Source: Desulfurivibrionaceae bacterium
Lineage (GTDB): Bacteria > Desulfobacterota > Desulfobulbia > Desulfobulbales > UBA5123
DNA: 64,000 nucleotides
NCBI GenBank assembly: GCA_030145325.1
Contig: JAQYVW010000002.1
Span: forward strand, 5,619 to 69,618
Reading direction: 5' to 3'
The position numbers and the translations under genes were made by a program. The notes under the pieces were generated by a model. The model saw nothing but the letters and a program-made list of their open reading frames with translations, made no database searches and was not told the DNA's origin. Of the stretch, positions 34,107 through 49,147 are shown in pieces (the first letter of the stretch is position 1; each line of letters starts with the position of its first letter).

Positions 34107-35222
34107 TTAGGTGGTGAAAAGTTCGGAAAAGCCGTTTTCCTGTAGCTCTTGCATGGAGTTTTGGGACAGGGTGGAATCTTCTTCAAGGACACTGGCAAAA
34201 TGCTCCACCACTTCTCCGTCAAACTGGCTGTCAATACAGCTGCGCAGTTCTGTAACGGCATCTTCACGGTTCAAATTGATCCGGTAACTGCGCTGTGAGG
34301 TCATGGCGTCGTAGCTGTCAGCAACGGTGACGATTTTGGTCAGGAGATCAAGTTCATCGCCGCCGAGGCCATCGGGGTAGCCCTTACCGTCCAGGCGCTC
34401 ATGGTGATGGCGGACGATGGCCCCTTCTCGCTCCAGAAAGGAAAGTGGTTTGATGATGTTTTCACCGATTACCGGATGTTTGCGCACCAGTTGCCACTCT
34501 TCATCGGTCAAGGGGCCAGGTTTCTGGATACAGCTGACATCAATGACCAATTTGCCCACATCGTGCAGCTGGCAGGCCCGGTCAAGGATGGCCAGCTCTT
34601 CTTGCGCCAACCCCATGGAGCGGCCGATAAGCATGGCATAGTGGGTGACCCGGTTGGTGTGACCGGCGGTGTATTGATCTTTCTCCTCAAGGGCGGTTTG
34701 CAGGGTAATGATGGTGTTGACTGACGCTACCTCAAGGTGATGACTATACTGTTGCAGAAGTTTGTTTTTTTCTGCCAGTTCCTTGGTCTTGGCTGCCACC
34801 TCAGCTTCAAGGTCTTCCGTGTAGGTCTTTTCTTTGATGACGAACATCCGTTTTTCGATGGCTCGGTTGATCTTGACATTAAAGAGGTCAATGTCTTCGA
34901 TGGGTTTTTGGATGAAGTCGTAGGCGCCCAAATTGATGGCCTTGATGGCGTATTCCATGCTGCCCGCGCCGGTGAGAAAGAGAACCGGGATATCGTAACC
35001 GCGCTTGTTTATTTCTTTAATGGTGTCAAAGCCGTCCATGCCCGGCATGTTGATGTCGAGAATGATCAGGTCGAAGTCCTCGGTGAGAACCTCCAGAGCC
35101 TCCTCGCCGCTACCGGTGGGGGAAACCTGGTGGCCGAACATTTCGAGGATCTTGGCCACCGCATCGCGAACCAGGCTGTCGTCGTCGGTGATCAGAATTT
35201 TTGCAGGTTCTTGTCTATTCAT
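34107..35222 (-). CDS. Response regulator (REC) fused to an HD-GYP c-di-GMP phosphodiesterase domain
   Basis: REC: ILITDDDSLVRDAVAKIL...LIILDINMPGMDGF. HD-GYP: HTNRVTHYAMLIG...LHDVGKLVID...HHERLDGKGYPDGL. The start is taken at the ATG at 35222 (MNRQEPAK); the track ORF extends to 35294. Confidence 0.85.
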   Translation of the reverse strand: MNRQEPAKILITDDDSLVRDAVAKILEMFGHQVSPTGSGEEALEVLTEDFDLIILDINMPGMDGFDTIKEINKRGYDIPVLFLTGAGSMEYAIKAINLGAYDFIQKPIEDIDLFNVKINRAIEKRMFVIKEKTYTEDLEAEVAAKTKELAEKNKLLQQYSHHLEVASVNTIITLQTALEEKDQYTAGHTNRVTHYAMLIGRSMGLAQEELAILDRACQLHDVGKLVIDVSCIQKPGPLTDEEWQLVRKHPVIGENIIKPLSFLEREGAIVRHHHERLDGKGYPDGLGGDELDLLTKIVTVADSYDAMTSQRSYRINLNREDAVTELRSCIDSQFDGEVVEHFASVLEEDSTLSQNSMQELQENGFSELFTT

Positions 35223-35494
35223 AGGTTGTTGTGCCGTGAGATTGTTTTTCACCAGCAAAGGGTGGGTCATTTTTGATAATAATAAGGTCCGCAAAGGTGA
35301 GTAACAAGTAATCTGTTAATCTGTTTGCGGGCTGCTTAATTTTCAAAGTGTTTTATATCCTACTATACAATTATGAATTCTTCGCAAGAATTTTTTTGAT
35401 CTTGTTGGGCTGAATCTGTTTCTTTTTCTCCCTTGCATGGTTCAGCAAACTTGCCATCGTAAAGAGATGTAAGGATCGGGTTTAGTTTGGTTTT

Positions 35495-36541
35495 TCATTG
35501 GGGCCAATGTTTTTTTGCCTCAGCCATGGCTTGATCGAGGAAAATAAGCGGTGGCGCAGCGGCGGCAAGGGTTTTGCGGTTTTGTTCGGAAAGGCCTTTG
35601 CCGTCGCGCAGTTCACGAAGTACTGCGGCCACCCCGGAGCGTAATCCTGCCAGATCATAGCCGCCTTCAAGGGCCAAAACCAGCCGACCAGAGCAAAGTT
35701 CGTCGGCCAAAGATTGGACAACCCCGGTCAGGTAGGCAAAACCGTCATTGCTAACCGACATCAACCCCAGCGGGTCGCCCAGGCTGATATCAAATCCGGC
35801 GGAAACCAGGATCAATTCCGGCTGGTAGGATCGAGCTACCGGGGCCAGGAGTTCGTTAAAGATCCGGGCATAGGCCTGATCATCTTGACCGCCGGGTAGC
35901 GGCACGTTGATGGTGTAGCCTTTGCCTGCCCCGCTACCCGTTTCGGTTACTGCCCCGCTACCGGGGAAGTATGGGTACTGGTGGGTGGAAAAATAGAGCA
36001 CCTGATTCGTATCATAAAATGAATGCTGGCTGCCGTTGCCGTGGTGCAGATCCCAATCCACAATTAGTATCCGTTCCAGCCCGAGGTTTTCGAGAGCATA
36101 ATGGGCGGCGATGGCGATGTTGTTGAAGAGGCAGAAACCACTGGTGTGATCAGCCTCGGCGTGGTGACCAGGTGGTCGCACCAGGGCGAAGCCATTGTCG
36201 GCCTCGCCGCTGACCACCATCTTTACCGCCTCCACCACTGCCCCGGCTGCCAAGCGAGCTGCCGCATGGGATTTTGCCGAGGTGGTGGTGTCGGGGTCAA
36301 GGGAGGCGAAGGTTTTGCCGTCGGTGGCCGCCACCCTGGCGAGATGGGGCTTGGTGTGGTTCAAGGCGAGGATCTCGTCGGTGGCTGGGGCAAAGCTTGG
36401 CAACAGATAGCGGTCCTGTTGTTCCGGCTGGTCGAGCATCTCGTAGATCACCTGCAGCCGATCTAGGGACTCGGGATGGCCGAAGCCGGGATCATGTTCC
36501 ATGAACAGCGGGTCTTTGAAGATGGCGGTCTGGCGCGGCAT
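35495..36541 (-). CDS. Histone deacetylase-family (class II HDAC/AcuC-like) Zn-dependent deacylase
   Basis: RPPGHHAEADHTSGFCLFNNIAIAA, IVDWDLHHGNGSQ and SAGFD motifs. Confidence 0.85.
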   Translation of the reverse strand: MPRQTAIFKDPLFMEHDPGFGHPESLDRLQVIYEMLDQPEQQDRYLLPSFAPATDEILALNHTKPHLARVAATDGKTFASLDPDTTTSAKSHAAARLAAGAVVEAVKMVVSGEADNGFALVRPPGHHAEADHTSGFCLFNNIAIAAHYALENLGLERILIVDWDLHHGNGSQHSFYDTNQVLYFSTHQYPYFPGSGAVTETGSGAGKGYTINVPLPGGQDDQAYARIFNELLAPVARSYQPELILVSAGFDISLGDPLGLMSVSNDGFAYLTGVVQSLADELCSGRLVLALEGGYDLAGLRSGVAAVLRELRDGKGLSEQNRKTLAAAAPPLIFLDQAMAEAKKHWPQ

Positions 36542-36561
36542 ATTTTCCTCCGGGTGGGGAA

Positions 36562-37137
36562 TTATGGTTTTATGTGGATAATTCGTTCTTCGGTGACCAG
36601 ATAGTTCAACCGCTGATCGTGGGGTAGCAGCGGCACTGACTCCACCAGTTGCATCTCATAGGCGATGCCGATGCGCAAGGCCTGCGGAGCCTGATCTGTG
36701 AGGAAACGGTCATAGTAGCCGCCGCCGTAACCAAGGCGACCGCCATTGGCATCGAAAACCGAGCCGGGCAGGATGACCACATCGATACCAAGGGGATCAA
36801 AAAGAGGAGTTCGGCTAGGGTCTGGCTCTGGAATGTTGCAGTATCCCAGAATAAGTTGTTGTTGTGGGTCGGTAAGGCGATAGGGATCCAGTCGTTTTTC
36901 CTTGGTCAGGGTCAGTGGCACGCTCACCTCTTTATGAAGGGCAAGGCTACGGTTAATCAGGTCGCTGGTTTCCACCTCACTGCGGAAATGGACGTAAATA
37001 AACGGGGCGTGGGAGTCGGCAAAGGGGGCAAGCTGCCAGAGATGCTCAGCGATGGCGCTGCTGTTGGTCTTTCGTGCTGACTCCGGCAAGGCATCGCGGG
37101 CAGCGAGGATGGTTTTGCGTAAGCTGTGGCGATCCAT
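36562..37137 (-). CDS. 5-formyltetrahydrofolate cyclo-ligase
   Basis: The start is set at the ATG at 37137 (MDRHSLRKTILAARDALP). C-terminal motifs are DVVILPGSVFDANGGRLGYGGGYYDRFL. Confidence 0.8.
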   Translation of the reverse strand: MDRHSLRKTILAARDALPESARKTNSSAIAEHLWQLAPFADSHAPFIYVHFRSEVETSDLINRSLALHKEVSVPLTLTKEKRLDPYRLTDPQQQLILGYCNIPEPDPSRTPLFDPLGIDVVILPGSVFDANGGRLGYGGGYYDRFLTDQAPQALRIGIAYEMQLVESVPLLPHDQRLNYLVTEERIIHIKP

Positions 37138-37308
37138 GGCGATATTGGGGCCTCGTGGGGTGGAGATGATAAATGAAACCAGGGCTACTTTACAGTGGCC
37201 GCAGATTAATCCGAGAAGGGGACAAATGCAAGTTTGCCCTGGCAAGGGTCTAAAAGTGCCTGACTGTTGATTTCCGTCACTGTTTATTGCTAGACTGCAC
37301 GCAATCTC

Positions 37309-37338
37309 CTTGACTTTGCCGCTTCGCCTGATTTATTT
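37309..37338 (+). promoter_or_regulatory. Possible sigma-70-type promoter for the rSAM-ArsM fusion operon
   Basis: TTGACT (37309-37314), an 18-nt spacer, then TATTTA (37333-37338), about 70 nt upstream of the ATG at 37409. The -10 element matches the consensus at only 4 of 6 positions. Confidence 0.25.
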
Positions 37339-37408
37339 AAGCAAATGGTTTGCTTCTGTTCCCGGCGGAATCTTCTGCTCCGAAACGACTCTCGTCTAAC
37401 TGGATATA

Positions 37409-40400
37409 ATGATTATGAATTACACACAACTATGGCAACGGCTGGAAGCAGCCGGGCAGCCTGTCTATGTGCAAGGGGACAAGCCGGACTGGTTGGTTCC
37501 TGATCTGCCCACCGATGAACTTTTGCAACAGTTGCAGGTAGGGGGAACCGCTGCAGATCTTTTAAGCCGGGAACGGTTGTTGGGTCAACTGGACCCTGCC
37601 TCAGGAAGGCCATATCAAGGGCGGGGCGGCAGTCTGCAATTAACCGAGTTAAAGGAATGCTGGTTTCATCTTACCGATAACTGTAATTTGGCTTGCCGTC
37701 ACTGTCTGTTCAGCGCTTCGCCGGCGGCAACCCGCACCCTGAGCAGAGCGCAGCTTGAAAAGGGGTTAGGCGAAGCCCGCGCCCTTGGCTGCACCCTTTT
37801 CTATTTCACTGGTGGCGAGCCCTTTGTCTATCCTGATTTTGTTGCCATTCTCGCCGATCTTCTTCGGGATCAGGCCGTGCATGCGGTGGTGTTAACCAAC
37901 GGGATGCTCTTGGGTGAGCATCTTGCGGCCCTGGCGCAATTGCCCGCTGACCGCCTGCATCTGCAAATCAGTATGGACGGCCTTGAGGAAAATCATCAAC
38001 GGTTGCGTGGTGCGGGTACCTTTTCGCGCTTACTGGCCAATCTTGAGGCTATTCAAGGCGCCGGGTTTGCGGTCACCCTGTCGGTGGCGGTGAATAGCGC
38101 TAATGTTGATGAGTTACCTGCGCTGGTGGAGTTTGCCGCTGCCCATGGGGTGAAGAATGTCCATTTGCTCTGGCATTTTGTCCGGGGCAAGGGCAGTCTG
38201 GCGCAGTTTGTGGAACCGGCGCTGATTTTGCCGCAGTTGCTCGCGGCCCAGAAGGTGGCCGAAGCAAGAGGGGTTATTATTGATAATGTTGAATCCCTGC
38301 GCAGTCAGGTGTTCAGCACCCCCGGCACCCGTTTTGACCTGAGCAACACCGCCTGGGAGTCGCTGGCGGTGGGGCCGGATGGGATGATCTATCCTTCTCC
38401 GGCCCTGGTGGGGATGGAGGAGTTAAACTGCGGTGCTCTTGCCCATGGCCTGGCCACGGTTTGGCGACAAAGCCCGGTTCTGCAGAAGATTAGGGCCACT
38501 TCGCTCATTGATGCCAGCCAATATCAAGAAAATCCGTTGGCTTTGATCATCGGCGGTGGCGACATCGATCACAGCTATCTGGCCGGGGGGGATTTTGTCG
38601 GCCATGATCCTTATCTGGAGCTTTATAATGGGTTGGCCCTCTGGTTGATTAGCGAGCAGGCCCTTCGTTATCCCAATCCACAGGCTGGCGATATCCTCCT
38701 CAGGATGGGCGACGTGCGTTATGATTGCCCCGAAAGTAGTGATGTCGCCCTCACCCATTGTAATTGTGTGATTTCCCTGGCCGATGATCGGGGTCATAGT
38801 TCGGTGCGGGAGTTTTACGGGGCGGCGGCGGTTAACGCCAACGAGGAGATCGCCAACCCCTTTGCCCCGGCTCAGGCTGAGGCTGAGGCTGATTATATCC
38901 CGACGGAGGTGAAGAAAAAATCCTACGGCTGCGGCAGTCCGGTAAGTGATGCGGCTTTACAGGCTGGTGAGGTGCTGGTTGATCTCGGCAGTGGCAGTGG
39001 CATTGAGTGTTTCATGGCGGCGGCGAAGGTGGGGGCCGAAGGCAGGGTATACGGCATCGACATGACCGATGAGATGCTCAAGTTGGCCCGGAAGTCGCAA
39101 GCAGAGGTGACGACAAAGCTTGGCTACGACAATATCGAGTTCAAGAAAGGTTTTCTCGAAGATCTTCCTCTGGATAATGATAGCGCCGACGCAGTGATCT
39201 CCAACTGTGTGATCAACTTAAGCCCGGACAAACGACAAACCTTTCATGAGATCCACCGGATCTTGAAGCCGGGTGGTCGGTTGGTGGTTTCCGATATCGT
39301 CACCGATGGAACGATCCCGGTGTGGATCAAAAACGATGCGCAGTTTCGTGGTGAATGTCTGGGTGGTGCCCTCCAGCAAGAGCAGTTGCTGGCCATGTTG
39401 CGGGCGGCGGGCTTTGGCGGCCTCACCTTGGTGAAGCGCTTTCCCTATCGCCAGGAGGGGGGGGTAACTTTTTATTCCCTGACCTTCCGGGCCTATAAAC
39501 CCACTCCGGCGCAGGAGGTGGAGGTAATCTATCGTGGCCCTTTTGCGGCGGTGAGTACTGAGTCCGGCGTGTTGTTGCCGCGTGGTCGCCGAGTAAGGAT
39601 TTCCCTCTCTGAGGCGGGCACCTTGGACGATTCGGTGTTTGTGGTTGACCCGGCTGGCGCGGTGGTCAATATGAGCCTCAGCAATAGTTGTTGCGATGCT
39701 GCGCCCCAGCCCACCTTGATGCCCCTTGCTGATCTCGCTCCCGTGCCGCAGGCACCTAGTTGTTGCGGGGGGGAGGAGCAACCGGCAGAGGTTGCTGCCG
39801 AAAAGATTGTACCTTTGGGGCTGCTGATAACGTCGCCAACGCCCACCAATAATGGTCGCCACCAGGCCGGGTGCATGGTCTGTGGTGGCGATCTTTCTTA
39901 CCTTGCCAAGGCCGAGAGGGCTGAATGCTATTACTGTGGCGGCAATCAACGGGTTAACGCGGTCTGCGGTCAGGGCCATTATGTCTGTGACGACTGTCAT
40001 CAGCAGGATGGTCTTTCCGCCATCCGCTTGCTCTGTGCCGAAACCAAAGAAAAGGATATGCTCACCCTCTTGGCCAAGATTCGCCGTCATCCGGCCATCC
40101 CCATGCATGGGCCGGAACATCACGCCATGGTGCCGGGGATTATCCTTGCCACCTATCGTAACCAGGGTGGGCCCATCAGTCGGGAGGACATCTTGACCGG
40201 CATTGAGCGGGGTAGCAAGGTGCCCGGTGGTGTTTGTGGTTTCTGGGGGAACTGCGGGGCCGCGGCGGGGGTGGGGATCGCCTTCAGCGTTATTCTTAAG
40301 GCCACGCCTCTTACCGCTGCCAGTCGTCAGCAGGCACAGGCCATCACTGCCCAGGTTTTGCGCAGGATCGCGGCGGTGAAGGGTGGGCGGTGTTGCCAGC

Positions 40401-40585
40401 GGGAAACAACCACCGCATTGCAGGAGGCCGCAACGTTTTCGGTGGGGATCTTACCGGTTTCCCTGTTGGCGGAAGATGTGTCGGCCTGTGAGCAATTTCA
40501 GCGCAACAAGGAATGCATTCGCAAGCAGTGCCCGCTTTGGGCTGAGTCCACAAAAGGTGAAGTTTCCTCAGGAGAGCGGTCATGA
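37409..40585 (+). CDS. Tri-domain fusion: radical SAM domain, ArsM-type As(III) S-adenosylmethionine methyltransferase, and a C-terminal Cys/His-rich (DUF5714-like) domain (1058 aa)
   Basis: rSAM: CWFHLTDNCNLACRHC (C92/C96/C99), FTGGEPF, and a cysteine-less SPASM-like hairpin VGPDGMIYPSP. ArsM core: SYGCGSP (C508), VLVDLGSGSGIECF, YGIDMTDEML, ISNCVINLSPDK (C600), LKPGGRLVVSDIV and GECLGGAL (C650). CC pairs occur at residues 761-762 and 785-786. C-terminus: CMVCGG...CYYCGG...CDDCH, HGPEHHAMVPG, GVCGFWGNCGAA and GGRCCQRE. Confidence 0.8.
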   Translation: MIMNYTQLWQRLEAAGQPVYVQGDKPDWLVPDLPTDELLQQLQVGGTAADLLSRERLLGQLDPASGRPYQGRGGSLQLTELKECWFHLTDNCNLACRHCLFSASPAATRTLSRAQLEKGLGEARALGCTLFYFTGGEPFVYPDFVAILADLLRDQAVHAVVLTNGMLLGEHLAALAQLPADRLHLQISMDGLEENHQRLRGAGTFSRLLANLEAIQGAGFAVTLSVAVNSANVDELPALVEFAAAHGVKNVHLLWHFVRGKGSLAQFVEPALILPQLLAAQKVAEARGVIIDNVESLRSQVFSTPGTRFDLSNTAWESLAVGPDGMIYPSPALVGMEELNCGALAHGLATVWRQSPVLQKIRATSLIDASQYQENPLALIIGGGDIDHSYLAGGDFVGHDPYLELYNGLALWLISEQALRYPNPQAGDILLRMGDVRYDCPESSDVALTHCNCVISLADDRGHSSVREFYGAAAVNANEEIANPFAPAQAEAEADYIPTEVKKKSYGCGSPVSDAALQAGEVLVDLGSGSGIECFMAAAKVGAEGRVYGIDMTDEMLKLARKSQAEVTTKLGYDNIEFKKGFLEDLPLDNDSADAVISNCVINLSPDKRQTFHEIHRILKPGGRLVVSDIVTDGTIPVWIKNDAQFRGECLGGALQQEQLLAMLRAAGFGGLTLVKRFPYRQEGGVTFYSLTFRAYKPTPAQEVEVIYRGPFAAVSTESGVLLPRGRRVRISLSEAGTLDDSVFVVDPAGAVVNMSLSNSCCDAAPQPTLMPLADLAPVPQAPSCCGGEEQPAEVAAEKIVPLGLLITSPTPTNNGRHQAGCMVCGGDLSYLAKAERAECYYCGGNQRVNAVCGQGHYVCDDCHQQDGLSAIRLLCAETKEKDMLTLLAKIRRHPAIPMHGPEHHAMVPGIILATYRNQGGPISREDILTGIERGSKVPGGVCGFWGNCGAAAGVGIAFSVILKATPLTAASRQQAQAITAQVLRRIAAVKGGRCCQRETTTALQEAATFSVGILPVSLLAEDVSACEQFQRNKECIRKQCPLWAESTKGEVSSGERS

Positions 40586-41265
40586 GCAAGGAGCCGGTAG
40601 CAAAGAAAGGGTTTGGCAAAGCGGCAATACTGCTGCTTTTTCTGGTGGTGGCGGTGATCATCTTTCGCTATACGCCGGTTAATGAATGGATTGCGCCGTC
40701 ACGGCTCCGGGAGTTGGTGGAGAGTTTTGGGGTTTGGAGCCCGTTGGTTTTTATCCTGATCTATGCGGTGGGGGTCTGTTTTTTTCTGCCTGCCACCCTC
40801 TTCACCGGGCTCGGGGCCTTGTTATTTGGCACTATGTATGGGTTTATCTATAATGAAATCGCCGCATTGCTAGGGGCGTCGGCAGCATTTTTCATCGGTC
40901 GTTATCTGGGCCGTGATTTTGCTGCTTCCTTGATCGGTGACCGCTTGCAAAAGTATGATGACAAGATTGCTGCCAACGGTTTTACCACCACCCTTTATCT
41001 GCGACTGCTATTCTTTCCCTTTACCCCCCTCAACTTCGGGATGGGGTTGACCAGGGTGACCTTTCGGGATTATTTTTTGGGTACCCTGTTCGGGATCATC
41101 GCCGGTGGCTTTGTCATGACCTTTTTCTTTGCCACCCTGGCTGAGGTCTGGGGCAGTGGAGACTGGTCGCAGTTGCTGGGCTGGAAAACTTTTCTGTCGC
41201 TGGCGTTGTTTGGCGGTTCTTTTATGATCCCCAAGGTGGTCAAAAAACTGAAGCCGGAAATATAA
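40582..41265 (+). CDS. TVP38/TMEM64 (DedA-related, SNARE-associated) family membrane protein
   Basis: YAVGVCFFLPATLFTGLGALLFGTMYGFIYNEIAALLGASAAFFIGRYLGRDF is the family core. Its ATG overlaps the fusion gene stop (ATGA at 40582-40585). Confidence 0.8.
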   Translation: MSKEPVAKKGFGKAAILLLFLVVAVIIFRYTPVNEWIAPSRLRELVESFGVWSPLVFILIYAVGVCFFLPATLFTGLGALLFGTMYGFIYNEIAALLGASAAFFIGRYLGRDFAASLIGDRLQKYDDKIAANGFTTTLYLRLLFFPFTPLNFGMGLTRVTFRDYFLGTLFGIIAGGFVMTFFFATLAEVWGSGDWSQLLGWKTFLSLALFGGSFMIPKVVKKLKPEI

Positions 41266-41267
41266 TC

Positions 41268-42098
41268 ATGCCGGAACTTCCGGAAGTAGAGGTAATCAAG
41301 CAGGGTTTAGCGCCGCTGGTGGTGGGGCGACGGGTGGAGCAGGTCGTCAGTAGCGGCAAGAAGCTGCGGCTGCCGATCCCCATTGTCCAGTTGCAGGGTG
41401 GGCTGCCGGGGAGCAGGATTGTTGCGGTTGAGCGGCGGGCCAAGTTTCTCATCTTGCGCACTGACCGCGAAGATATGCTGGTCATCCATCTCGGGATGAC
41501 CGGGCGAGTAGGGATTTTTGCTGCCGGTACTCTCCGCGCCCGCCATGACCACCTCTGCTTCCTGCTGGACAACGGCTTTGAGATGCGGTTCAATGATGCG
41601 CGGCGATTCGGTTCGGTACAATTCTTTTCAGCCGCCCAGTTAGGTGAGATAGATCCTTTCGCCAACCTTGGCCCGGAGCCATTGGGGAAAAAGTTTACTG
41701 TCGCCCATTTGCAAAAGTGTGCGAAGGGGCGGCGGCTGCCGGTAAAAGGTTTTCTGATGGAGAACCGGGTGGTGGTGGGGATCGGCAATATCTACGCCAG
41801 CGAGACTCTTTTTGCGGCCGGGATTCATCCCCTTACGCCAGCGGGTTCTCTGGTTGCAGAACAGTGGCAAGCCATTGTCCGCTGGGCCAGAAAGGTGCTG
41901 CGGCGGGCCATTAAAGCTGGCGGTACCACCATTTCCGATTATGTGAATGCTGGTGGCGAATCAGGTTATTTTCAATTGGAGCTGGCGGTTTATGGTCGTT
42001 TCGGTCAACCCTGCCGCAGCTGTAAGACAAGTATTGAACGGATTCTGGTGGGTGGTCGCGCCACCTTTTTTTGTCCCCTCTGTCAAGGTCATAGATAA
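41268..42098 (+). CDS. mutM: Formamidopyrimidine-DNA glycosylase
   Basis: MPELPEVE N-terminus and the C-terminal zinc finger CRSCKTSIERILVGGRATFFCPLCQ. Confidence 0.9.
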   Translation: MPELPEVEVIKQGLAPLVVGRRVEQVVSSGKKLRLPIPIVQLQGGLPGSRIVAVERRAKFLILRTDREDMLVIHLGMTGRVGIFAAGTLRARHDHLCFLLDNGFEMRFNDARRFGSVQFFSAAQLGEIDPFANLGPEPLGKKFTVAHLQKCAKGRRLPVKGFLMENRVVVGIGNIYASETLFAAGIHPLTPAGSLVAEQWQAIVRWARKVLRRAIKAGGTTISDYVNAGGESGYFQLELAVYGRFGQPCRSCKTSIERILVGGRATFFCPLCQGHR

Positions 42099-42103
42099 AC
42101 AAG

Positions 42104-42892
42104 ATGCTTCCCTATCCTGAGATTGATCCGGCCATTATTCATCTCGGGCCGTTCCAGGTTCGCTGGTATGGCTTGATGTATGTGCTTGGTTTCTTAGCCG
42201 CCTATCATTTGGTGCGACATCAGATCAAGAAATTTGCTCTCCGGGGGCTGGCTGAACATTTTGAAAACCTTAATTTTGTTCTGCTGGTGGGGCTCATCCT
42301 CGGCGGTCGCTTGGGCTATGTCTTTTTCTATAATCCCAGTTATTACTTTGCCCATCCAGGTGAGATCATCGCCACCTGGCATGGCGGGATGTCTTTTCAT
42401 GGTGCCTTAATCGGGTTGCTTCTGGGCGGAATTTACTTCTGTCGTCGTCACCAGCTTGATTTCTGGCAGACCGCCGATGTCTATGTGGCGGCCATTCCCA
42501 TTGGTCTTGGTTTGGGCAGGATTGGCAACTTTATCAACGGCGAGTTATACGGGCGGGTGAGTGAGGTGCCGTGGGCGATGATTTTCCCCGGTGGCGGGCC
42601 ACTTCCTCGGCATCCTTCGCAGCTCTATGAATGTTTGCTGGAGGGAGTATTGCTCTTTGTCATCCTCTGGCGGCTGAAGGAAAACCGCTGGCCCACCGGA
42701 TTCATGTTGGCTTTGTTTTTGGTTGCTTACGGGCTGGTGCGTTCCTTGGTGGAGTTGTTCCGGCAGCCGGATCCGCAGTTAGGTTTTCTTTTCGCTTCGC
42801 TGACCATGGGCCAGTTGTTAAGCGGGTTGATGATTCTCGGCGGTGGTTTGATTTTTCTTTTCCGGCGACGACGTGGTATCGGTGATCCATGA
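42104..42892 (+). CDS. lgt: Prolipoprotein diacylglyceryl transferase
   Basis: IHLGPFQVRWYGLMYVLGFL, GGRLGYVFFYN, HGGMSFHGALIG, GRIGNFINGELYGR and HPSQLYE. Confidence 0.9.
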   Translation: MLPYPEIDPAIIHLGPFQVRWYGLMYVLGFLAAYHLVRHQIKKFALRGLAEHFENLNFVLLVGLILGGRLGYVFFYNPSYYFAHPGEIIATWHGGMSFHGALIGLLLGGIYFCRRHQLDFWQTADVYVAAIPIGLGLGRIGNFINGELYGRVSEVPWAMIFPGGGPLPRHPSQLYECLLEGVLLFVILWRLKENRWPTGFMLALFLVAYGLVRSLVELFRQPDPQLGFLFASLTMGQLLSGLMILGGGLIFLFRRRRGIGDP

Positions 42893-42950
42893 CCGCTTGA
42901 CGGTGAGAACCTCTTTAAAGTATGGTGATGGGATCGTCGTTTTAGGGACT

Positions 42951-43044
42951 AGTGCCCGTCCATAAATGGTCTTTTCGCAGTCGTCGGAGTCTCGTAAACT
43001 CATGTTCCTGATCTACGACAAATCCTCATTGATGGGCAGACACT
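42951..43044. repeat. MITE-like element, short (internally deleted) copy A
   Basis: The left end is agtgcccgtccataaatggtcttttcgcag and the right end is gatctacgacaaatcctcattgatgggcagacact. Both ends match the copy at 59061-59203, and the ends are imperfect inverted repeats of each other. It is intergenic between lgt and the M16 peptidase gene. Confidence 0.6.
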
Positions 43045-46714: not shown

Positions 46715-49147
46715 TCAATTGGGGTAGGGCCAAGGCAGCATTTCTCCTGGGCAGCGTCCTTGCGGGCAGCCCGGTTCAACCGCGATGCTGCTGCCGTTGG
46801 ATCCACCTCGCCAGAGGGCGGCTCGTTGTCGGGAAACAGTGTTGATGGTGATTTGGCGCTGATTCACCTGGTGGTCGTCGTCGATGGCGGTGACCATTAT
46901 TTTCGGCCCGGAAGATGATGCGGCGGCGGTATAGAACGATGATGGAACCACAAAGGAGATGATGGAACCTTCTTCGTTCATTTTTTTGATCCGAATCGGC
47001 GTGCCGCCGGTTTGTTCCCAGTTGAAGTGCAGGGTGGCGCGATTTTCATCGCGGCTGGCACTGGCATCAATGGTTACCACCTCGCCCACTTGATAAGTCT
47101 TGGCCAGCGGGCTTACCTGAACTTGCGGTGGCGGCGTGCCCTTTGCCATCATCAGTCTAACCTTCCGTTTTGGGGAGTAGGTTTTGCCCATTTTAAAGCG
47201 GTAAGTGATGCTTTCGCGACCACTGAAATATGGATCAGGTTGGTAACGATATCGAGTTGGATTTACTTTGGATAATTGCCCATGCAAATCCTTGCCAAGG
47301 ATCTGGACGCTGACATTTTTACCGAAGGGGGCGCTATTGGCCTCTGCCCAGATTTTTCGCCAGTCGAGATCCAAGCTTTCGGTGCTGCGCATGGAGATGG
47401 TGATGTTTTTTGCGGTGGTGCCGGTTGCTTTCGGTTTTTCCGTCATGGCCATGGTTGGGGGGGGGGCGGCGAGATTAGGGCCGGAAATAACGATGTCCGC
47501 CGGTTCGCTTGCCCCTTGGCCGTCGCTGACCAGAAAGGTGAAGCGGTCTTCGCCGGGAAAGTTGTTGTTGGGCAGATAGGTTATTTGGGGAGGTTCTCCC
47601 GAAATTCTGCCGTGGGCAGGGGCATTGGTTATTTCAAAGGTGAGGGGGTCATCTTCCTTGTCGGCCGCGGTGAGTAAGATGGCCAGCTCGCCGCCCTTGG
47701 TAGGCATTTTGTAATCTGCAGCAACGGCCTGGGGCAAGGTATTGACTTCCTCCGGGGGGGCGGCCGTTTCCGGCACCAGTTCCGACATGGTAATGGCAGG
47801 TTTCTTGTTGGGGTGGAGGTAAAAATAGCCCCCGACGAGAAGTGCTAAACTGAGCATAGCAGCAGCGCCCATAACCTTTTTGTTCTTTAGCATCGCTAGT
47901 ATTGGCAGAGTTTTAGATGCTTTGTGCTCAGACATGGAGGTGATGGTTTCTTCTCCCACGGGGCCGTCGGCCAAAAAGTCCGGCAATGCCTGAGTAGCTT
48001 CATCATCATTGAAGAGGGCATTCGCGTCAACTGTCTCACCAGCGGTTATCGGTTCTTCGGTTCCTAAGGTGAAGTCTTCAGCGCTGAGGCCAAAATCTTC
48101 TTCGCCCAGGGTGAAGGATTCATCGTCTCCCTTGTCTTCGTCAAGTAGTTCTGTAAAATCAACCTCTTCAGATTTGAAGGACTTGTCTTTGGGGGCACTT
48201 TCTTCTTCGTTAAAATCGTTGAAGAGTTGGTCGATGTCGTCATCCTGACTGCCTGTATTACTTACTGTGCCGCCATCCATATCTCCGAAAAGATCATCGA
48301 TCTCGGATTGATCAATGGACTCGTCTCCGTTCGCGGCCAGGGATTCCAAGGCGTTGTCGGGAGCAAGATTGGCATCACTGGCATCGTTTTCACCAAATAA
48401 GGCGTCGATGTCATTTTGACTGACCGGGCCACTGTCGTCTGCACTTGCCGCGTCAACGGCCTGATCATCACCACCAAGCAGGGCATCGATTTCGGATTGA
48501 TCAATGGCGTCGTCGCCAGCGTTAAGTTCCGGCTCCGGCGTGGTCGCGGGCGTATCAACGTCCCCACTGAGCAGGGCGTCGATTTCGGATTGATCAATGG
48601 CGTCGCCGCCAGCGTTAACTTCCGGCTCCGGCGTGGCTGCGGGCGTATCACCGCCCCCGCTGAGCAGGGCATCGATATCTGATTGATCAATGGCGTCGCC
48701 GCCAGCGTTAACTTCCGGCTCCGGCGTGGCCGCGGGCGTATCACCGCCCCCACTGAGCAGGGCATCGATATCTGATTGATCGATGGCGTCGCCGCCAGCG
48801 TTAACTTCCGGCTCCGGCGTGGCTGCGGGGGTATCATCGCCCCCACTGAGCAGGGCATCGATATCTGATTGATCAATGGCGTCGCCGCCAGCGTTAACTT
48901 CCGGCTCCGGCGTTGCTGCTGGCGCATCACCGCCCAGGAGGGCATCAATGGCAGATTGGTCAATGGGCCCGTCTTGTTCGGCTGCTTCCGTTGGCGGAGC
49001 TGCTGCGGCCAGATCCTCATCGTTGTTGCCCAATAAGGCTTCATCGATGTCGGACTGATCTATTTGCGCACCGGTTTTGTCAGCTTCTTCAAAATCATCA
49101 AGCCAATCGTCTATTTCGGCAGAGGTGTTTTTTTCTTCATCGGCCAT
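46715..49147 (-). CDS. Single-pass membrane protein: an acidic cytoplasmic N-terminus with about nine FliM-N-terminus-like [IL]DQS[DE]IDALL motifs, one TM helix, and an extracytoplasmic Ig/cadherin-like region (810 aa)
   Basis: ATG at 49147. Motif copies are QIDQSDIDEALLG, PIDQSAIDALLGG, AIDQSDIDALLSGG (3 copies), AIDQSEIDALLSG, AIDQSEIDALLGG, VSQNDIDALFG and SIDQSEIDDLFG. The TM helix VMGAAAMLSLALLVGGYFYL is at about residues 425-444 (nt 47816-47875). The C-terminal region contains DPLTFEITNAPAHGRISGEPPQITYLPNNNFPGEDRFTFLVSDGQG. Confidence 0.85.
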   Translation of the reverse strand: MADEEKNTSAEIDDWLDDFEEADKTGAQIDQSDIDEALLGNNDEDLAAAAPPTEAAEQDGPIDQSAIDALLGGDAPAATPEPEVNAGGDAIDQSDIDALLSGGDDTPAATPEPEVNAGGDAIDQSDIDALLSGGGDTPAATPEPEVNAGGDAIDQSDIDALLSGGGDTPAATPEPEVNAGGDAIDQSEIDALLSGDVDTPATTPEPELNAGDDAIDQSEIDALLGGDDQAVDAASADDSGPVSQNDIDALFGENDASDANLAPDNALESLAANGDESIDQSEIDDLFGDMDGGTVSNTGSQDDDIDQLFNDFNEEESAPKDKSFKSEEVDFTELLDEDKGDDESFTLGEEDFGLSAEDFTLGTEEPITAGETVDANALFNDDEATQALPDFLADGPVGEETITSMSEHKASKTLPILAMLKNKKVMGAAAMLSLALLVGGYFYLHPNKKPAITMSELVPETAAPPEEVNTLPQAVAADYKMPTKGGELAILLTAADKEDDPLTFEITNAPAHGRISGEPPQITYLPNNNFPGEDRFTFLVSDGQGASEPADIVISGPNLAAPPPTMAMTEKPKATGTTAKNITISMRSTESLDLDWRKIWAEANSAPFGKNVSVQILGKDLHGQLSKVNPTRYRYQPDPYFSGRESITYRFKMGKTYSPKRKVRLMMAKGTPPPQVQVSPLAKTYQVGEVVTIDASASRDENRATLHFNWEQTGGTPIRIKKMNEEGSIISFVVPSSFYTAAASSSGPKIMVTAIDDDHQVNQRQITINTVSRQRAALWRGGSNGSSIAVEPGCPQGRCPGEMLPWPYPN
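48470..48967. repeat. In-frame 93-bp (31-aa) tandem repeat, about 5 copies, nearly identical at the DNA level
   Basis: The unit encodes TPAATPEPEVNAGGDAIDQSDIDALLSGGGD. Successive units start at residues about 77, 108, 139, 170 and 201. The central units differ by only a few bases by eye. Confidence 0.85.

What the first reader, a model, noticed from the sequence alone, without database searches (positions are those of the whole stretch)
37409..40585. Radical SAM, ArsM and Cys/His-rich domain triple fusion: a candidate novel organoarsenical (or metalloid) tailoring enzyme
Seen in sequence: one 1058-aa ORF contains three parts. (i) A radical SAM core with CX3CX2C (C92/C96/C99) spans about nt 37661-38398. 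It ends in a SPASM-like hairpin that lacks the auxiliary-cluster cysteines. (ii) A complete ArsM-type class I methyltransferase spans about nt 38801-39478. It has the SAM-binding loop VLVDLGSGSG and all three cysteines that bind As(III) in characterised ArsM enzymes: YGCG (C508), SNCVINL (C600) and GECLGGAL (C650). Downstream vicinal CC pairs are present, as in many ArsMs. (iii) A roughly 230-aa C-terminal domain spans about nt 39866-40543. It has zinc-ribbon-like CxxC pairs and the motifs HGPEHH, GVCGFWGNCG and RCCQRE, which I recall as DUF5714-like. Established knowledge: in the known pathways, ArsM works with a separate radical SAM enzyme. ArsS makes arsenosugars by 5'-deoxyadenosyl transfer to dimethylarsenite, and ArsL works with ArsM in arsinothricin synthesis. 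Inference: a covalent fusion of the two chemistries, in an anaerobe and outside any ars resistance operon, suggests a dedicated route to a C-As (or other metalloid) product not yet described.
Basis: partly seen in the sequence, partly recalled or inferred. Interest (0 to 1): 0.8.

Follow-up and report, generated by a model that had tools for sequence, protein, structure and literature searches.

The report
Radical SAM–ArsM–DUF5714 fusion enzyme
This is a real, intact gene for a three-part enzyme that is conserved across sulfur-cycling Desulfobulbales, joins an arsenic-type methyltransferase to a radical enzyme and a cysteine-rich domain of unknown fold, and whose recurring neighbours suggest an undescribed route to sugar-linked organoarsenic compounds.

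Summary
ORF 37409-40585 (+) encodes 1058 aa with four parts:
- an N-terminal RRE-like lobe;
- a canonical radical SAM core (C92/C96/C99, GGE), followed by a SPASM fold that has lost its cluster cysteines;
- a complete ArsM-type methyltransferase with three invariant As(III)-binding cysteines (C508, C600, C650);
- DUF5714, joined by a roughly 50-aa disordered tether. DUF5714 is a zinc-ribbon plus helical bundle with no solved structural relative.

It is not a mis-assembly. 82 of 83 Desulfobulbales loci carry it uninterrupted, including two chromosome-scale records, and 189 species genomes encode a relative.

The radical SAM part is not ArsS or ArsL; it has the architecture of a peptide-maturase (CteB-like) enzyme. 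The gene is not novel to databases, only uncharacterised. Its neighbours do point to organoarsenical chemistry. In distant lineages the fusion, or its unfused radical SAM homologue, sits beside genes that pass NCBIfam's arsenosugar-glycosyltransferase models (TIGR04282/TIGR04283). It also sits beside VTT, MerA-like and DUF547 genes, and VTT, MerA-like, DUF547 and glycosyltransferase genes also lie beside canonical ArsM or ArsS-ArsM loci. The window keeps the VTT gene, which overlaps the fusion's stop codon.

The likely role is coupled As methylation and radical C-As bond formation. This is unproven.

The parts
37409..40585 (+). Complete ORF, 1058 aa plus stop: the RRE-like / radical SAM / degenerate SPASM / ArsM-like / DUF5714 fusion protein
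   Evidence: AlphaFold full-length model: mean pLDDT 88.6, pTM 0.74.
37409..37588 (+). N-terminal lobe (aa 1-60), beta3-alpha2. Probably a shortened PqqD/RRE-like domain.
   Evidence: DSSP on the model gives E10-14, E17-22, E27-31, H33-44, H48-60 at pLDDT about 95. CteB, which is RRE+rSAM+SPASM by my own knowledge, aligns over 466 columns. The N-termini of homologues P0242 and P0274 hit Pfam PqqD at 21.8 and 20.4 bits against GA 23.4. The window protein itself gives no Pfam hit here.
37670..38137 (+). Radical SAM core (aa 88-243) with the cluster motif C92-x3-C96-x2-C99 and the SAM-binding motif FTGGEP (aa 133-138)
   Evidence: Pfam PF04055, 80.1 bits. C92, C96, C99 and T134-P138 are invariant in 21 close homologues (A1). 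The cluster cysteines and the TGGEP part of the motif are invariant in 10 distant homologues (A2).
38306..38668 (+). Degenerate SPASM/twitch-like subdomain (about aa 300-420). The auxiliary-cluster cysteines are replaced, for example by the invariant GGGDxDHS at aa 382-389.
   Evidence: Pfam SPASM E = 0.2. PqqE, MftC and AlbA profile alignments run to about aa 366. Structural matches to CteB, anSME, ChlB and PqqE. Invariant columns G382, G383, D385, D387, H388, S389.
38726..38767 (+). C440 ... C451-x-C453 (THCNC) at the junction between the radical SAM and methyltransferase parts. C440 and C453 are invariant in all triple fusions examined.
   Evidence: A1 invariants C440, C451, C453. In A2 the equivalents of C440 and C453 are invariant, while C451 is Ser in distant members. 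Their role is inferred only.
38801..39694 (+). ArsM-type class I methyltransferase (aa 465-762). It contains the SAM loop DLGSGSG, the As(III)-binding cysteines C508 (YGCG), C600 (SNCVINL) and C650 (GECLGG), the ArsM C-terminal domain, and ends in the invariant C761-C762.
   Evidence: NCBIfam NF008823, 233.3 bits, aa 488-682. The arsinothricin ArsM model aligns to aa 762. PDB 5evj, 4fr0 and 8xt7 at E = 1e-34 to 1e-39, with the three motifs aligned residue for residue. Foldseek ranks 1-13 are ArsM/AS3MT. The cysteines are invariant in A1 and A2.
39695..39850 (+). Low-complexity, Pro/Ala-rich tether (aa 763-814) containing a second CC pair. Predicted disordered.
   Evidence: pLDDT 31-41 over aa 762-814. 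Its length and sequence vary among homologues.
39851..40021 (+). Cys/His-rich beta-hairpin ('zinc-ribbon-like') module: C822, C825, C840, C843, C853, H857, C860, C863, H864
   Evidence: Two long strands in both models. All nine residues except C822 are invariant in the 116-sequence alignment A4, where C822 is conserved in 90% or more; all nine are invariant in A1. A4 includes stand-alone DUF5714 proteins.
40022..40540 (+). DUF5714 helical bundle (aa 872-1044) with HGPEHH, GxCGFWGxCGA, RCC (C995-C996), C1027, C1036 and C1041
   Evidence: Pfam PF18978, 210.1 bits. AlphaFold model pLDDT 88.7, pTM 0.84. No PDB fold match: best Foldseek E = 1.9. Invariant residues.
40582..41265 (+). VTT/TVP38 (DedA-superfamily) membrane protein gene. 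Its start overlaps the fusion's stop by 4 nt. Probable functional partner.
   Evidence: ORF. The 72%-identical orthologue in Thiovibrio carries Pfam VTT_dom. It lies directly downstream in 18 of 73 Desulfobulbales loci with room downstream. VTT genes also sit next to the fusion in D. alkaliphilus, next to the unfused rSAM homologue in L171, in the L158 cluster and in plain ArsM or ArsS-ArsM loci L108, L120, L129, L137.

Best explanation
The gene encodes a single-polypeptide organo-metalloid (most probably organoarsenic) biosynthetic enzyme.

Shown:
- An ArsM-type methyltransferase with the three As(III)-ligating cysteines is fused to a canonical, 5'-deoxyadenosyl-type radical SAM domain.
- Both are joined by a disordered tether to a Cys/His-rich DUF5714 domain.
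- All catalytic motifs are conserved from 37% to 80% identity.

Inferred mechanism:
1. As(III) is held by C508, C600 and C650 and methylated with SAM to MAs(III) and then DMAs(III).
2. This labile, toxic trivalent product is passed within the same protein to the radical SAM site.
3. There a 5'-deoxyadenosyl radical adds to arsenic, making a C-As bond. This would be an ArsS-like adenosylation giving a dimethylarsinoyl-nucleoside. The domain doing it is a non-orthologous replacement of ArsS, derived from an RRE-rSAM-SPASM maturase.
4. The tethered DUF5714 domain, with its invariant vicinal C995-C996 and surrounding Cys/His, acts as a swinging metalloid-binding or thiol-redox arm that loads or shuttles the arsenical. 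It may also re-reduce the active-site cysteines.
5. Downstream steps use partner genes that are adjacent in other lineages: the DUF2064 and GT2 'arsenosugar' glycosyltransferases, a MerA-like flavoprotein disulfide reductase, DUF547 and a VTT membrane protein. These would convert and export the product as a sugar- or lipid-linked arsenical.

In this window only the VTT gene remains adjacent. By its 4-nt overlap with the fusion's stop codon it is probably translationally coupled.
For: Domain identity and conservation.

The radical SAM motifs CX3CX2C and GGE are invariant, so this domain is under selection and is not vestigial.

Neighbourhood evidence comes from independent lineages:
- L088: a 46%-identical triple fusion is followed directly by a fused TIGR04282+TIGR04283 protein, scoring 223 and 248 bits against cutoffs of 134 and 182.
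- L007: TIGR04282 (219.6 bits) and TIGR04283 (225 bits) lie directly upstream of the fusion.
- L087, a Desulfocapsa MAG: fragments of the glycosyltransferase pair lie directly upstream.
- L173/L174: DUF2064 overlaps the fusion's start, with DUF547, a Pyr_redox_2 protein, GT87 and GT2 genes alongside.
- L171: an unfused rSAM homologue (41% identical over aa 7-468) is followed by DUF547, VTT, a MerA-like gene, GT87 and a DUF2064+GT2 fusion.
- L158: a non-ArsS rSAM, an ArsM-like gene, VTT, a MerA-like gene, TIGR04283, TIGR04282 and an AhpD-like gene.

Members of the same accessory set flank plain ArsM or ArsS-ArsM loci. L137 has ArsS with DUF3641, ArsM, the glycosyltransferases and VTT. L108, L120 and L129 have ArsM with VTT and MerA-like genes, plus DUF547 in L108 and a DUF2064-type glycosyltransferase in L129.

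In Desulfobulbales:
- VTT follows the fusion in the window and in 18 of 73 loci.
- A MerA-like gene lies within 3 kb upstream of the fusion in 5 of the 83 loci; top tblastn hits include L017, L021, L022, L025, L001 and L041.

Precedents:
- ArsS adenosylates DMAs(III) to DDMAA (PMC13598754).
- ArsL binds As(III) through the cysteines of an RCCLKC motif (PMC13598754). Compare the invariant RCC of DUF5714.
- In the selenoprotein form of DUF5714 (MbdU) the review lists the motif as CU (PMC13188914). This fits a ligand or redox role for that pair.

The disordered 50-aa tether fits a mobile carrier domain.
Against: - No biochemical data exist for any member.
- The rSAM domain is not homologous to ArsS beyond the superfamily. 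The ArsS model scores 51.5 bits against a cutoff of 300. Its heritage is peptide-maturase-like: an RRE-like lobe and a CteB-like fold.
- In this window and in most Desulfobulbales loci the glycosyltransferases are not within 10 kb. The context is housekeeping: 5-formyl-THF cyclo-ligase, MutM and Lgt.
- The glycosyltransferase pair also occurs in an ABC-transporter/kinase/EamA operon without any ArsM or rSAM gene. The NCBIfam names calling it 'arsenosugar' are, to my knowledge, computational inferences.
- L171 has the rSAM homologue and the accessory set but no methyltransferase within 7 kb. The core pathway may therefore not need arsenic methylation.
- DUF5714 also partners with a different rSAM family (TrsS) and a different methyltransferase beside a molybdenum hydroxylase cluster.
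- Near-universal conservation in one order in a housekeeping context is odd for metabolism of a trace element.
Confidence: 0.45

Rival explanations
1. Same machine, different element. The three-thiolate site and the Cys/His-rich DUF5714 domain handle selenium, tellurium, antimony or a reactive sulfur species rather than arsenic. The product is a methylated or adenosylated seleno- or other chalcogen/metalloid compound.
For: - DUF5714 and ArsM-like methyltransferases repeatedly occur as selenoproteins and in selenium-linked neighbourhoods. Examples are MbdU, TrsS and the 'dicluster protein near Sec' beside a molybdenum hydroxylase cluster with XdhC in L005.
- A YedF selenium-metabolism gene lies 7.5 kb upstream in the window: TIGR03527, 214.6 bits against a cutoff of 110.
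- The family is conserved in a whole order of sulfur-cycling anaerobes in a housekeeping context. This fits an abundant substrate better than arsenic does.
Against: - The methyltransferase is specifically closest to enzymes that are experimentally As(III) methyltransferases.
- It keeps exactly their three As-binding cysteines.
- The accessory genes are those found next to ArsS-ArsM or plain ArsM loci.
- YedF sits in a syntenic housekeeping block and was not tested for linkage.
Confidence: 0.2
2. A protein, peptide or cofactor maturase. The RRE-rSAM-SPASM-derived domain modifies a polypeptide or a metallocofactor precursor. This could be the enzyme's own tethered DUF5714 domain or the CC-containing linker. 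The ArsM-like domain methylates a thiol or metal-bound ligand on that scaffold. On this view DUF5714 is the substrate or assembly scaffold, not an arsenic carrier.
For: - The structural architecture matches the sactisynthase CteB (466 aligned columns, TMt 0.70), and also SkfB, anSME, ChlB, SuiB and PqqE.
- PqqD/RRE domains are detectable in homologues P0242, P0274, P0291 and P0292.
- DUF5714 is fused or adjacent to a second, unrelated rSAM family: Zn_ribbon_HMPTM/TrsS in P0328, P0381 and L005. In L005 it sits with a DVU_1556 methyltransferase and an AMP-ligase beside a molybdenum hydroxylase cluster with XdhC and a MobA-like gene.
- L171 has the rSAM homologue and accessory genes without a methyltransferase.
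Against: - No precursor-peptide gene is evident beside the fusion in the window.
- The RRE-like lobe in the window protein is shortened and gives no PqqD hit.
- The SPASM auxiliary-cluster cysteines are gone. By my own knowledge these are needed by the known peptide-modifying relatives.
- The strictly conserved ArsM As-binding triad is unexplained by a peptide-thiol methylation model.
- Glycosyltransferase neighbours are not typical of RiPP loci. This last point is my own knowledge.
Confidence: 0.2
3. An ordinary arsenic-detoxifying ArsM that merely carries accessory or vestigial domains. Only methylation and volatilisation of As(III) matters.
For: - UniRef names the D. alkaliphilus protein 'arsenite methyltransferase'.
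- The ArsM part is complete.
Against: - The radical SAM cluster motif, the GGE motif and about 30 Cys/His residues in DUF5714 are invariant over 37-80% identity. These domains are therefore functional.
- There is no ars operon context.
- The ArsM part lacks the fourth cysteine. From my own knowledge of CmArsM mutants, that cysteine is needed for the first methylation of As(III).
Confidence: 0.07
4. An assembly or annotation artefact: separate genes joined by mis-assembly or a read-through error.
For: None found. One related locus, L007, shows the opposite error: the gene is broken into four overlapping frames on a metagenome contig.
Against: - The same uninterrupted architecture occurs in 82 of 83 Desulfobulbales loci.
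- It also occurs in two chromosome-scale records.
- About 20 clusters at 50% identity contain a full-length triple fusion.
Confidence: 0.01

Closest known systems
ArsM / AS3MT As(III) S-adenosylmethionine methyltransferases (CmArsM 4fr0/4fs8, CrArsM 5evj, human AS3MT 8xt7)
   Same: - Same fold and three-domain layout over aa 465-762.
- 29-35% identity in structural alignment.
- E = 1e-34 to 1e-39 by sequence.
- SAM loop present, and the three cysteines of the YGCG, SNCV(I/L)NL and GEC(L)GG motifs are conserved and aligned.
- Vicinal CC after the C-terminal domain.
   Different: - Below NCBIfam's curated cutoff: 233.3 bits against 263. Model positions 1-46 are not matched.
- No cysteine at the position of the fourth, N-terminal cysteine.
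- Embedded between a radical SAM enzyme and DUF5714.
- Not in an ars operon.
ArsS (TIGR04167), the radical SAM enzyme of arsenosugar biosynthesis that adenosylates DMAs(III)
   Same: - A canonical CX3CX2C radical SAM enzyme working with ArsM.
- The fusion, or its unfused rSAM homologue, occupies the place beside TIGR04282/TIGR04283, VTT, MerA-like and AhpD-like genes that ArsS occupies in the canonical cluster L137.
   Different: - Not orthologous. The ArsS model scores 51.5 bits against a cutoff of 300, over the core only.
- No DUF3641 Cys-rich C-terminal domain.
- It has instead an RRE-like lobe and a cysteine-less SPASM fold.
- It is covalently fused to ArsM.
ArsL (arsinothricin biosynthesis, noncanonical radical SAM) with ArsM
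   Same: - Pairs a radical SAM C-As bond-forming step with an ArsM methylation.
- ArsL binds As(III) through the cysteines of a C-terminal RCCLKC motif (PMC13598754). This resembles the invariant R994-C995-C996 of DUF5714.
   Different: - ArsL cleaves SAM to a 3-amino-3-carboxypropyl radical and is noncanonical.
- The window protein has the standard motifs of 5'-deoxyadenosyl-forming enzymes.
- The RCC resemblance covers three residues and may be chance.
- No ArsL-specific model was tested.
RRE-rSAM-SPASM peptide maturases (CteB 5why/5wgg, SkfB 6efn, SuiB, PqqE 6c8v, anSME 4k36)
   Same: These are the best structural matches for aa 1 to about 460. CteB gives 466 aligned columns, TMt 0.70-0.71 and E about 1e-13. 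They are also the best PDB sequence matches (SkfB 1.3e-11, PqqE 1.3e-9). Some homologues have an N-terminal PqqD-like domain.
   Different: - Auxiliary [4Fe-4S] cysteines are absent and replaced by an invariant GGGDxDHS.
- The RRE is shortened.
- No precursor peptide is evident.
- The domain is fused to a small-molecule methyltransferase.
DUF5714 / MbdU 'metal-binding double selenoprotein' and the TrsS neighbourhood (NCBIfam NF045648, NF045646; Haft & Tolstoy 2025, not readable here)
   Same: - The C-terminal 270 aa match the MbdU model over 270 positions, 143.7 bits.
- As a separate gene or in other fusions, DUF5714 also accompanies a radical SAM enzyme plus an ArsM-related methyltransferase (L005, P0328, P0381).
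   Different: - The window protein has Cys-Cys where the review lists a CU motif for MbdU.
- It scores far below the MbdU cutoff of 600.
- The partner rSAM is of a different family (SPASM clade, not the Tes/HMPTM-like TrsS).
- The methyltransferase is a full ArsM type, not the DVU_1556 type.

Membership tests
Radical SAM superfamily (PF04055) | CX3CX2C [4Fe-4S] motif | tested here: met
   C92-x3-C96-x2-C99. Invariant in A1 and A2.
Radical SAM superfamily (PF04055) | Profile score above Pfam's gathering score, and a GGE SAM-binding motif | tested here: met
   80.1 bits against 29.5. T134-G-G-E-P138 is invariant.
Radical SAM superfamily (PF04055) | Reductive cleavage of SAM by a bound [4Fe-4S] cluster | not testable with these tools
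   Needs anaerobic reconstitution and detection of 5'-deoxyadenosine.
SPASM/twitch radical SAM subfamily | C-terminal subdomain fold after the core | tested here: met
   PqqE, MftC and AlbA profiles align to about aa 366. Foldseek matches to CteB, anSME, ChlB and PqqE at TMt 0.70-0.76.
SPASM/twitch radical SAM subfamily | Cysteines ligating one or two auxiliary [4Fe-4S] clusters (Pfam SPASM above 21.5 bits) | tested here: not met
   SPASM scores 12.4 bits, E = 0.2. The motif positions hold GPDGMIYPSP and GGGDIDHS. Relatives P0291 and P0295-P0298 do meet this feature.
ArsS (TIGR04167) | Equivalog model score at or above 300, and a DUF3641 Cys-rich C-terminal domain | tested here: not met
   51.5 bits over model positions 3-151 only. 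No DUF3641 hit. A true ArsS with DUF3641 was seen in L137.
ArsL (arsinothricin radical SAM) | Noncanonical SAM cleavage to an ACP radical, and a C-terminal RCCLKC As-binding motif | not tested
   No ArsL-specific model appeared among the listed hits. Only a three-residue RCC resemblance in DUF5714.
ArsM / arsenite methyltransferase (NF008823) | Curated whole-protein score at or above 263 | tested here: not met
   233.3 bits, aligned to model positions 47-236 of 272. The shortfall comes from the unmatched N-terminal 46 positions.
ArsM / arsenite methyltransferase (NF008823) | Three cysteines that bind As(III) (CmArsM C72, C174, C224 equivalents, numbering from my own knowledge) | tested here: met
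   C508, C600 and C650 align to the YGCG/WGCG, SNCV and GEC motifs of 5evj and 4kw7. They are invariant in A1 and A2.
ArsM / arsenite methyltransferase (NF008823) | Fourth conserved N-terminal cysteine (CmArsM C44 equivalent) | tested here: not met
   The 5evj segment 'TSACT' aligns to 'NPFA' plus a gap, so there is no cysteine between VREFYG and YGCG. C440 and C453 lie upstream and might substitute, which is inference.
ArsM / arsenite methyltransferase (NF008823) | Closer to ArsM than to UbiE/COQ5-type methyltransferases | tested here: met
   ArsM chains score E = 1e-34 to 1e-39, against 3.4e-11 for the next family. Foldseek ranks 1-13 are all ArsM/AS3MT.
ArsM / arsenite methyltransferase (NF008823) | As(III) methylation activity | not testable with these tools
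   Needs an enzyme assay with As speciation.
DUF5714 (PF18978) | Profile score above Pfam's gathering score over the full model | tested here: met
   210.1 bits against 26.2, model positions 1-173 of 173.
MbdU metal-binding double selenoprotein (NF045648) | Score at or above 600, and two selenocysteines (CU motif) | tested here: not met
   143.7 bits. The ORF has no in-frame TGA and reads C995-C996.
PqqD / RiPP recognition element (PF05402) | Winged-helix beta3-alpha3 domain scoring above 23.4 bits | tested here: inconclusive
   No hit for window aa 1-94. The model shows beta3-alpha2. Homologues P0242 and P0274 score 21.8 and 20.4 bits. P0291 scores 39.9 and P0292 27.6.

The most novel reading that the evidence does not exclude
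The fusion is the core of an ArsS-independent, previously unrecognised route to C-As compounds, either arsenosugar- or arsenolipid-like. On one polypeptide, arsenic is methylated and radical-adenosylated, or otherwise alkylated, while it is carried on a tethered Cys-rich domain with a new fold. The route would be widespread in sulfur-cycling Desulfobulbales and other anaerobes. That would imply a physiological use of organoarsenicals, or of another soft metalloid, rather than detoxification.
Probability: 0.3. Interest if true: 0.85.

Novelty: new variant of a known kind. Interest (0 to 1): 0.68.

Why it matters
Known biological C-As bond formation rests on two radical SAM enzymes, ArsS and ArsL. 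Each works with a separate ArsM.

A third, non-orthologous radical SAM lineage fused to ArsM, together with a carrier-like domain of unknown fold, would matter in three ways:
- It would widen the enzymology of organoarsenicals.
- It would explain what an 'arsM-like' gene is doing in a large share of Desulfobulbales. That bears on how arsM counts in anoxic sediments, paddy soils and groundwater are read.
- It would give DUF5714, the VTT/MerA-like/DUF547 gene set and the TIGR04282/TIGR04283 glycosyltransferases a testable biochemical context.

The protein is a self-contained candidate for in vitro work, because substrate-generating and substrate-consuming domains sit in one chain.

If the substrate turns out not to be arsenic, the family would still define a new use of the ArsM three-thiolate site.

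Tried and rejected
- **Mis-assembly:** rejected.
- **UbiE/COQ5 placement of the methyltransferase:** rejected.
- **Orthology of the rSAM part with ArsS:** rejected.
- **Regulatory RNA:** an Rfam scan of 35000-43000 at E <= 1 found nothing.
- **Promoters and terminators:** terminator-like sites occurred at chance frequency, and the scan was uninformative about operon ends.
- **Metagenome scan:** the tool chose ArsM motifs as search patterns, so the scan returned mostly plain ArsM loci. These were still useful as a comparison set.
- **Literature:** there were no papers for 'DUF5714', 'DUF2064', 'ArsM + radical SAM + fused' or 'arsM + Desulfobulb + radical SAM'. The 'MbdU' search returned only unrelated acronyms. 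The two Haft papers that define MbdU, TrsS and the selenoprotein ArsM fusions are not held.
- **Source organism:** exact look-up of P0001, the 100%-identical database protein, found no contig, so the organism was not identified beyond Desulfobulbales. The closest locus is L008, 79% identical, from a Desulfobulbaceae MAG.
- **Model coordinates:** these are not exposed to scripts, so I could not measure whether C440 and C453 or the DUF5714 cysteines approach the ArsM or rSAM active sites.
- **L158 rSAM:** I first counted it as 'the same family'. It matches only the core, 34% identity over aa 72-225, so I now call it only 'non-ArsS'.
- **L137:** it turned out to be a canonical ArsS cluster, not a member of this family.

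Full report
**1. Observation**

The window contains one uninterrupted ATG-initiated ORF at 37409-40585 (+), 1058 aa. Pfam finds three domains above threshold:
- Radical_SAM, aa 88-243, 80.1 bits;
- a class I methyltransferase, Methyltransf_31, aa 519-668, 105.3 bits;
- DUF5714, aa 872-1044, 210.1 bits.

NCBIfam places the methyltransferase with arsenite methyltransferases (NF008823, 233.3 bits over aa 488-682). The C-terminal 270 aa match the DUF5714-containing 'metal-binding double selenoprotein MbdU' model at 143.7 bits, far below its cutoff of 600.

**2. Not an artefact**

- More than 120 database proteins of 995-1118 aa share the whole architecture at 56-80% identity.
- A scan of one genome per GTDB species found 189 genomes with a relative. 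The best 80 are all Desulfobulbales: Desulfobulbaceae, Desulfurivibrionaceae and Desulfocapsaceae. They include cultured Desulfurivibrio, Thiovibrio and Hydrosulfovibrio.
- 82 of 83 such loci give one tblastn alignment segment longer than 950 aa.
- The chromosome-scale records of D. alkaliphilus AHT2 and Thiovibrio sp. JS02 carry the gene intact.
- An exhaustive HMMER search of 50%-identity representatives shows about 20 further clusters of full-length triple fusions down to 38-46% identity.
- That search also shows related architectures: rSAM+ArsM without DUF5714; PqqD+rSAM+SPASM+ArsM; ArsM+rSAM+SPASM in the reverse order; and a different rSAM family (Zn_ribbon_HMPTM type) fused to DUF5714.

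**3. Anatomy**

An AlphaFold model built on 116 homologues is confident (mean pLDDT 88.6, pTM 0.74), apart from aa 762-814 and the last 8 residues.

(a) *N-terminal lobe.* Residues 1-60 form three strands and two helices. Pfam sees nothing there in the window protein. The equivalent region of the 46%-identical triple fusion P0242 and of P0274 hits PqqD just under threshold, and P0291 and P0292 hit it above threshold. The lobe is therefore probably a shortened RiPP-recognition-element-like domain.

(b) *Radical SAM core.* It has the invariant C92, C96 and C99 and FTGGEP. These are the hallmarks of canonical 5'-deoxyadenosyl-radical enzymes.

(c) *SPASM-like subdomain.* PqqE, MftC and AlbA profiles align to about aa 366. 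The model superposes on CteB (466 columns, TMt 0.70), SkfB, anSME, ChlB, SuiB and PqqE. The auxiliary-cluster cysteines are missing: SPASM scores 12.4 bits, E = 0.2. In their place is an invariant GGGDxDHS.

(d) *ArsM part.* A complete ArsM runs from VREFYG (aa 466) to the invariant C761-C762. C508, C600 and C650 align residue for residue with the As(III)-binding cysteines of crystallised ArsMs. They are invariant in close and distant fusions. The fourth, N-terminal ArsM cysteine is absent at its aligned position. C440 and C453, invariant in all triple fusions, lie just upstream and might replace it. That is inference.

(e) *Tether.* A disordered Pro/Ala-rich segment of about 50 aa.

(f) *DUF5714.* A separate model of aa 783-1058, built from 82 sequences, gives pLDDT 88.7 and pTM 0.84. 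It is a Cys/His-rich beta-hairpin followed by an eight-helix bundle. No PDB structure resembles it: best Foldseek E = 1.9. About 20 Cys/His are invariant even when stand-alone DUF5714 proteins are included. These include H900, H904, H905, C943, C949, the vicinal C995-C996, C1027, C1036 and C1041.

**4. What the radical SAM part is not**

Its best NCBIfam matches are generic SPASM-clade families, all far below cutoff. The Rv1681 family scores 105.5 against 380. ArsS scores 51.5 against 300 and covers the core only. It is therefore not an ArsS orthologue. It also has none of the DUF3641 domain that a genuine ArsS shows (seen in L137).

**5. Context in the window and its clade**

The gene is flanked by housekeeping genes. 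Upstream and divergent is 5-formyl-THF cyclo-ligase (TIGR02727). Downstream on the same strand are, in order:
- a VTT/TVP38 membrane protein gene that overlaps the stop codon by 4 nt;
- MutM, after a 2-nt gap;
- Lgt, after a 5-nt gap.

Thiovibrio has the same order. Across 83 Desulfobulbales loci:
- MutM follows in 44 of 73 loci with room downstream;
- VTT lies between the fusion and MutM in 18;
- the cyclo-ligase is upstream in 20 of 68.

A MerA-like flavoprotein disulfide reductase (PRK06370 subfamily) lies within 3 kb upstream of the fusion in 5 loci. The top tblastn hits include L017, L021, L022, L025, L001 and L041. In D. alkaliphilus it is paired with a VTT gene and is divergent from the fusion. 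No ars operon, riboswitch or informative terminator was found.

**6. The informative contexts are in other lineages**

- L088: a triple fusion (P0242) is followed directly by a single protein that passes both the TIGR04282 and the TIGR04283 'arsenosugar biosynthesis glycosyltransferase' models.
- L007: both glycosyltransferases, each above cutoff, immediately precede the fusion. The fusion there is split by frameshifts.
- L087, a Desulfocapsa MAG: fragments of the same pair immediately precede the fusion.
- L173/L174 (P0249): a DUF2064 gene overlaps the fusion's start. DUF547, a Pyr_redox_2/ferredoxin protein, GT2/GT21, GT87 and GT2 genes lie alongside, and a B12-binding rSAM follows.
- L171: P0290 is an unfused protein 41% identical to aa 7-468 of the fusion. 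It heads an operon of DUF547, VTT, a MerA-like gene, GT87 and a DUF2064+GT2 fusion.
- L158: a non-ArsS rSAM, an ArsM-like gene, VTT, a MerA-like gene, TIGR04283, TIGR04282 and an AhpD-like gene.

Members of the same accessory set also flank plain ArsM or ArsS-ArsM loci recovered in the metagenome scan:
- L137 has ArsS with DUF3641, ArsM, the glycosyltransferases and VTT.
- L108, L120 and L129 have ArsM with VTT and MerA-like genes, plus DUF547 in L108 and a DUF2064-type glycosyltransferase in L129.

The fusion, or its unfused rSAM part, thus stands where ArsS (with ArsM) stands. The VTT gene coupled to the fusion in this window belongs to that recurring set.

**7. Mechanism proposed**

Established:
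- ArsM methylates thiolate-bound As(III). This is my own knowledge, with the structures.
- ArsS adds a 5'-deoxyadenosyl radical to DMAs(III) to give DDMAA (PMC13598754).
- ArsL binds As(III) with the cysteines of an RCCLKC motif (PMC13598754).

Inferred for this protein:
1. The ArsM domain generates MAs(III) or DMAs(III).
2. Fusion allows the toxic, oxidation-prone trivalent product to be handed directly to the radical SAM site for C-As bond formation.
3. The tethered DUF5714 domain, through C995-C996 and its neighbours, binds or shuttles the arsenical or serves as a dedicated thiol reductant. The review lists the MbdU selenoprotein motif as CU.
4. The glycosyltransferases, the disulfide reductase and the VTT membrane protein finish and relocate the product.

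I put this at about 0.45.

**8. Why not higher**

- The rSAM heritage is that of peptide maturases.
- DUF5714 also partners with TrsS-type rSAM enzymes and a DVU_1556 methyltransferase next to a molybdenum hydroxylase cluster with XdhC and a MobA-like gene. This hints at cofactor or selenium chemistry.
- L171 lacks a methyltransferase.
- The glycosyltransferase pair occurs without any ArsM or rSAM gene in an ABC-transporter/APH/EamA operon in Desulforhopalus-like genomes.
- Close relatives of the Desulfocapsa glycosyltransferase are rare compared with the fusion: one hit above 55% identity, against more than 120 for the fusion. Most Desulfobulbales carriers may therefore lack the pair.
- The 'arsenosugar' names of TIGR04282 and TIGR04283 are, to my knowledge, guilt-by-association annotations.

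**9. Comparison with the known, and novelty**

The protein works like ArsM plus an ArsS-type partner. It is a member of neither curated family:
- the ArsM model falls just below cutoff and one defining cysteine is missing;
- the ArsS test fails outright;
- the SPASM cysteines fail;
- it is a bona fide member of the radical SAM superfamily and of DUF5714.

No paper in the searchable library mentions DUF5714 or a radical SAM-ArsM fusion. The NCBIfam authors' papers that name MbdU and TrsS could not be read, so prior comment on this architecture cannot be excluded.

I rate it a new variant of a known kind: radical SAM plus ArsM organoarsenical biosynthesis. It is real, widespread, uncharacterised and directly testable.

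Noticed in passing
window 29310-29924 (-): A 204-aa protein passes the model for the sulfurtransferase-like selenium metabolism protein YedF: TIGR03527, 214.6 bits against a cutoff of 110. It lies 7.5 kb upstream of the fusion in the same syntenic housekeeping block. Linkage to the fusion was not tested.
   Followed up: partly
window 27333-28853 (-): A 506-aa protein with many CxxCH-type motifs and weak hits to the 'doubled CXXCH domain' and NrfH models. Probably a multihaem cytochrome.
   Followed up: partly
window 46715-49147 (-): An 810-aa acidic protein with about five near-identical tandem repeats (...GDAIDQSDIDALLSGG.DTPAATPEPEVNAG...), followed by a 'tandem-95 repeat' Ig-like region. 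Function unknown.
   Followed up: partly
window 40582-42892 (+): The fusion, VTT, MutM and Lgt genes are packed with a 4-nt overlap, a 2-nt gap and a 5-nt gap, which looks like an operon. MutM directly follows the fusion in 44 of 73 Desulfobulbales loci. No functional reason for the MutM link is apparent.
   Followed up: partly
window 38552-38575 (aa 382-389): An invariant GGGDxDHS motif replaces the cysteine motif of the SPASM domain in all close homologues. It could be a new metal or substrate site.
   Followed up: no
L005 373-10729 (also L006): A stand-alone DUF5714 protein (P0234) sits in a cluster with a molybdenum hydroxylase, the 'dicluster protein near Sec', the TrsS radical SAM (509.7 bits against a cutoff of 490), a DVU_1556 methyltransferase, a DVU_1553 AMP-dependent ligase, a MobA-like transferase, DUF364 and XdhC. 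The rSAM + methyltransferase + DUF5714 triad therefore recurs with non-homologous parts.
   Followed up: partly
P0291, P0292, P0295, P0297, P0298 (representative proteins): These relatives have PqqD + rSAM + intact SPASM + ArsM (P0291, P0274 also carry C-terminal Cys-rich tails such as ...GCCACG), or the reversed order ArsM + rSAM + SPASM. They suggest a broad, undescribed superfamily of rSAM-ArsM fusions.
   Followed up: partly
L169 1356-7717; L170 1345-8589: In Desulforhopalus-like genomes the DUF2064 + GT2 pair sits in an operon with a sugar-type ABC importer, an APH-family kinase and, in L170, an EamA exporter. No ArsM, ArsS or fusion gene is present. This casts doubt on an exclusively arsenic-related role for these glycosyltransferases.
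   Followed up: no
L173 11260-13185: A B12-binding radical SAM gene directly follows a distant triple fusion. DUF547, a Pyr_redox_2/ferredoxin fusion, GT21/GT2 and GT87 genes lie divergently upstream.
   Followed up: no
P0001 versus L025: The 100%-identical database protein P0001 is recorded on an NCBI contig of 102173 bp. That is the same length as the Hydrosulfovibrio ferrireducens contig behind L025. Yet L025 is only about 64% (protein) and 74-77% (DNA) identical to the window. Exact look-up of P0001 found no contig. The source organism of the window is unresolved.
   Followed up: partly
L007 3762-6897: The fusion homologue is split into four overlapping reading frames on an ENA metagenome contig. 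It is either an indel-rich assembly or a pseudogene, and gene callers report it as three separate genes.
   Followed up: partly
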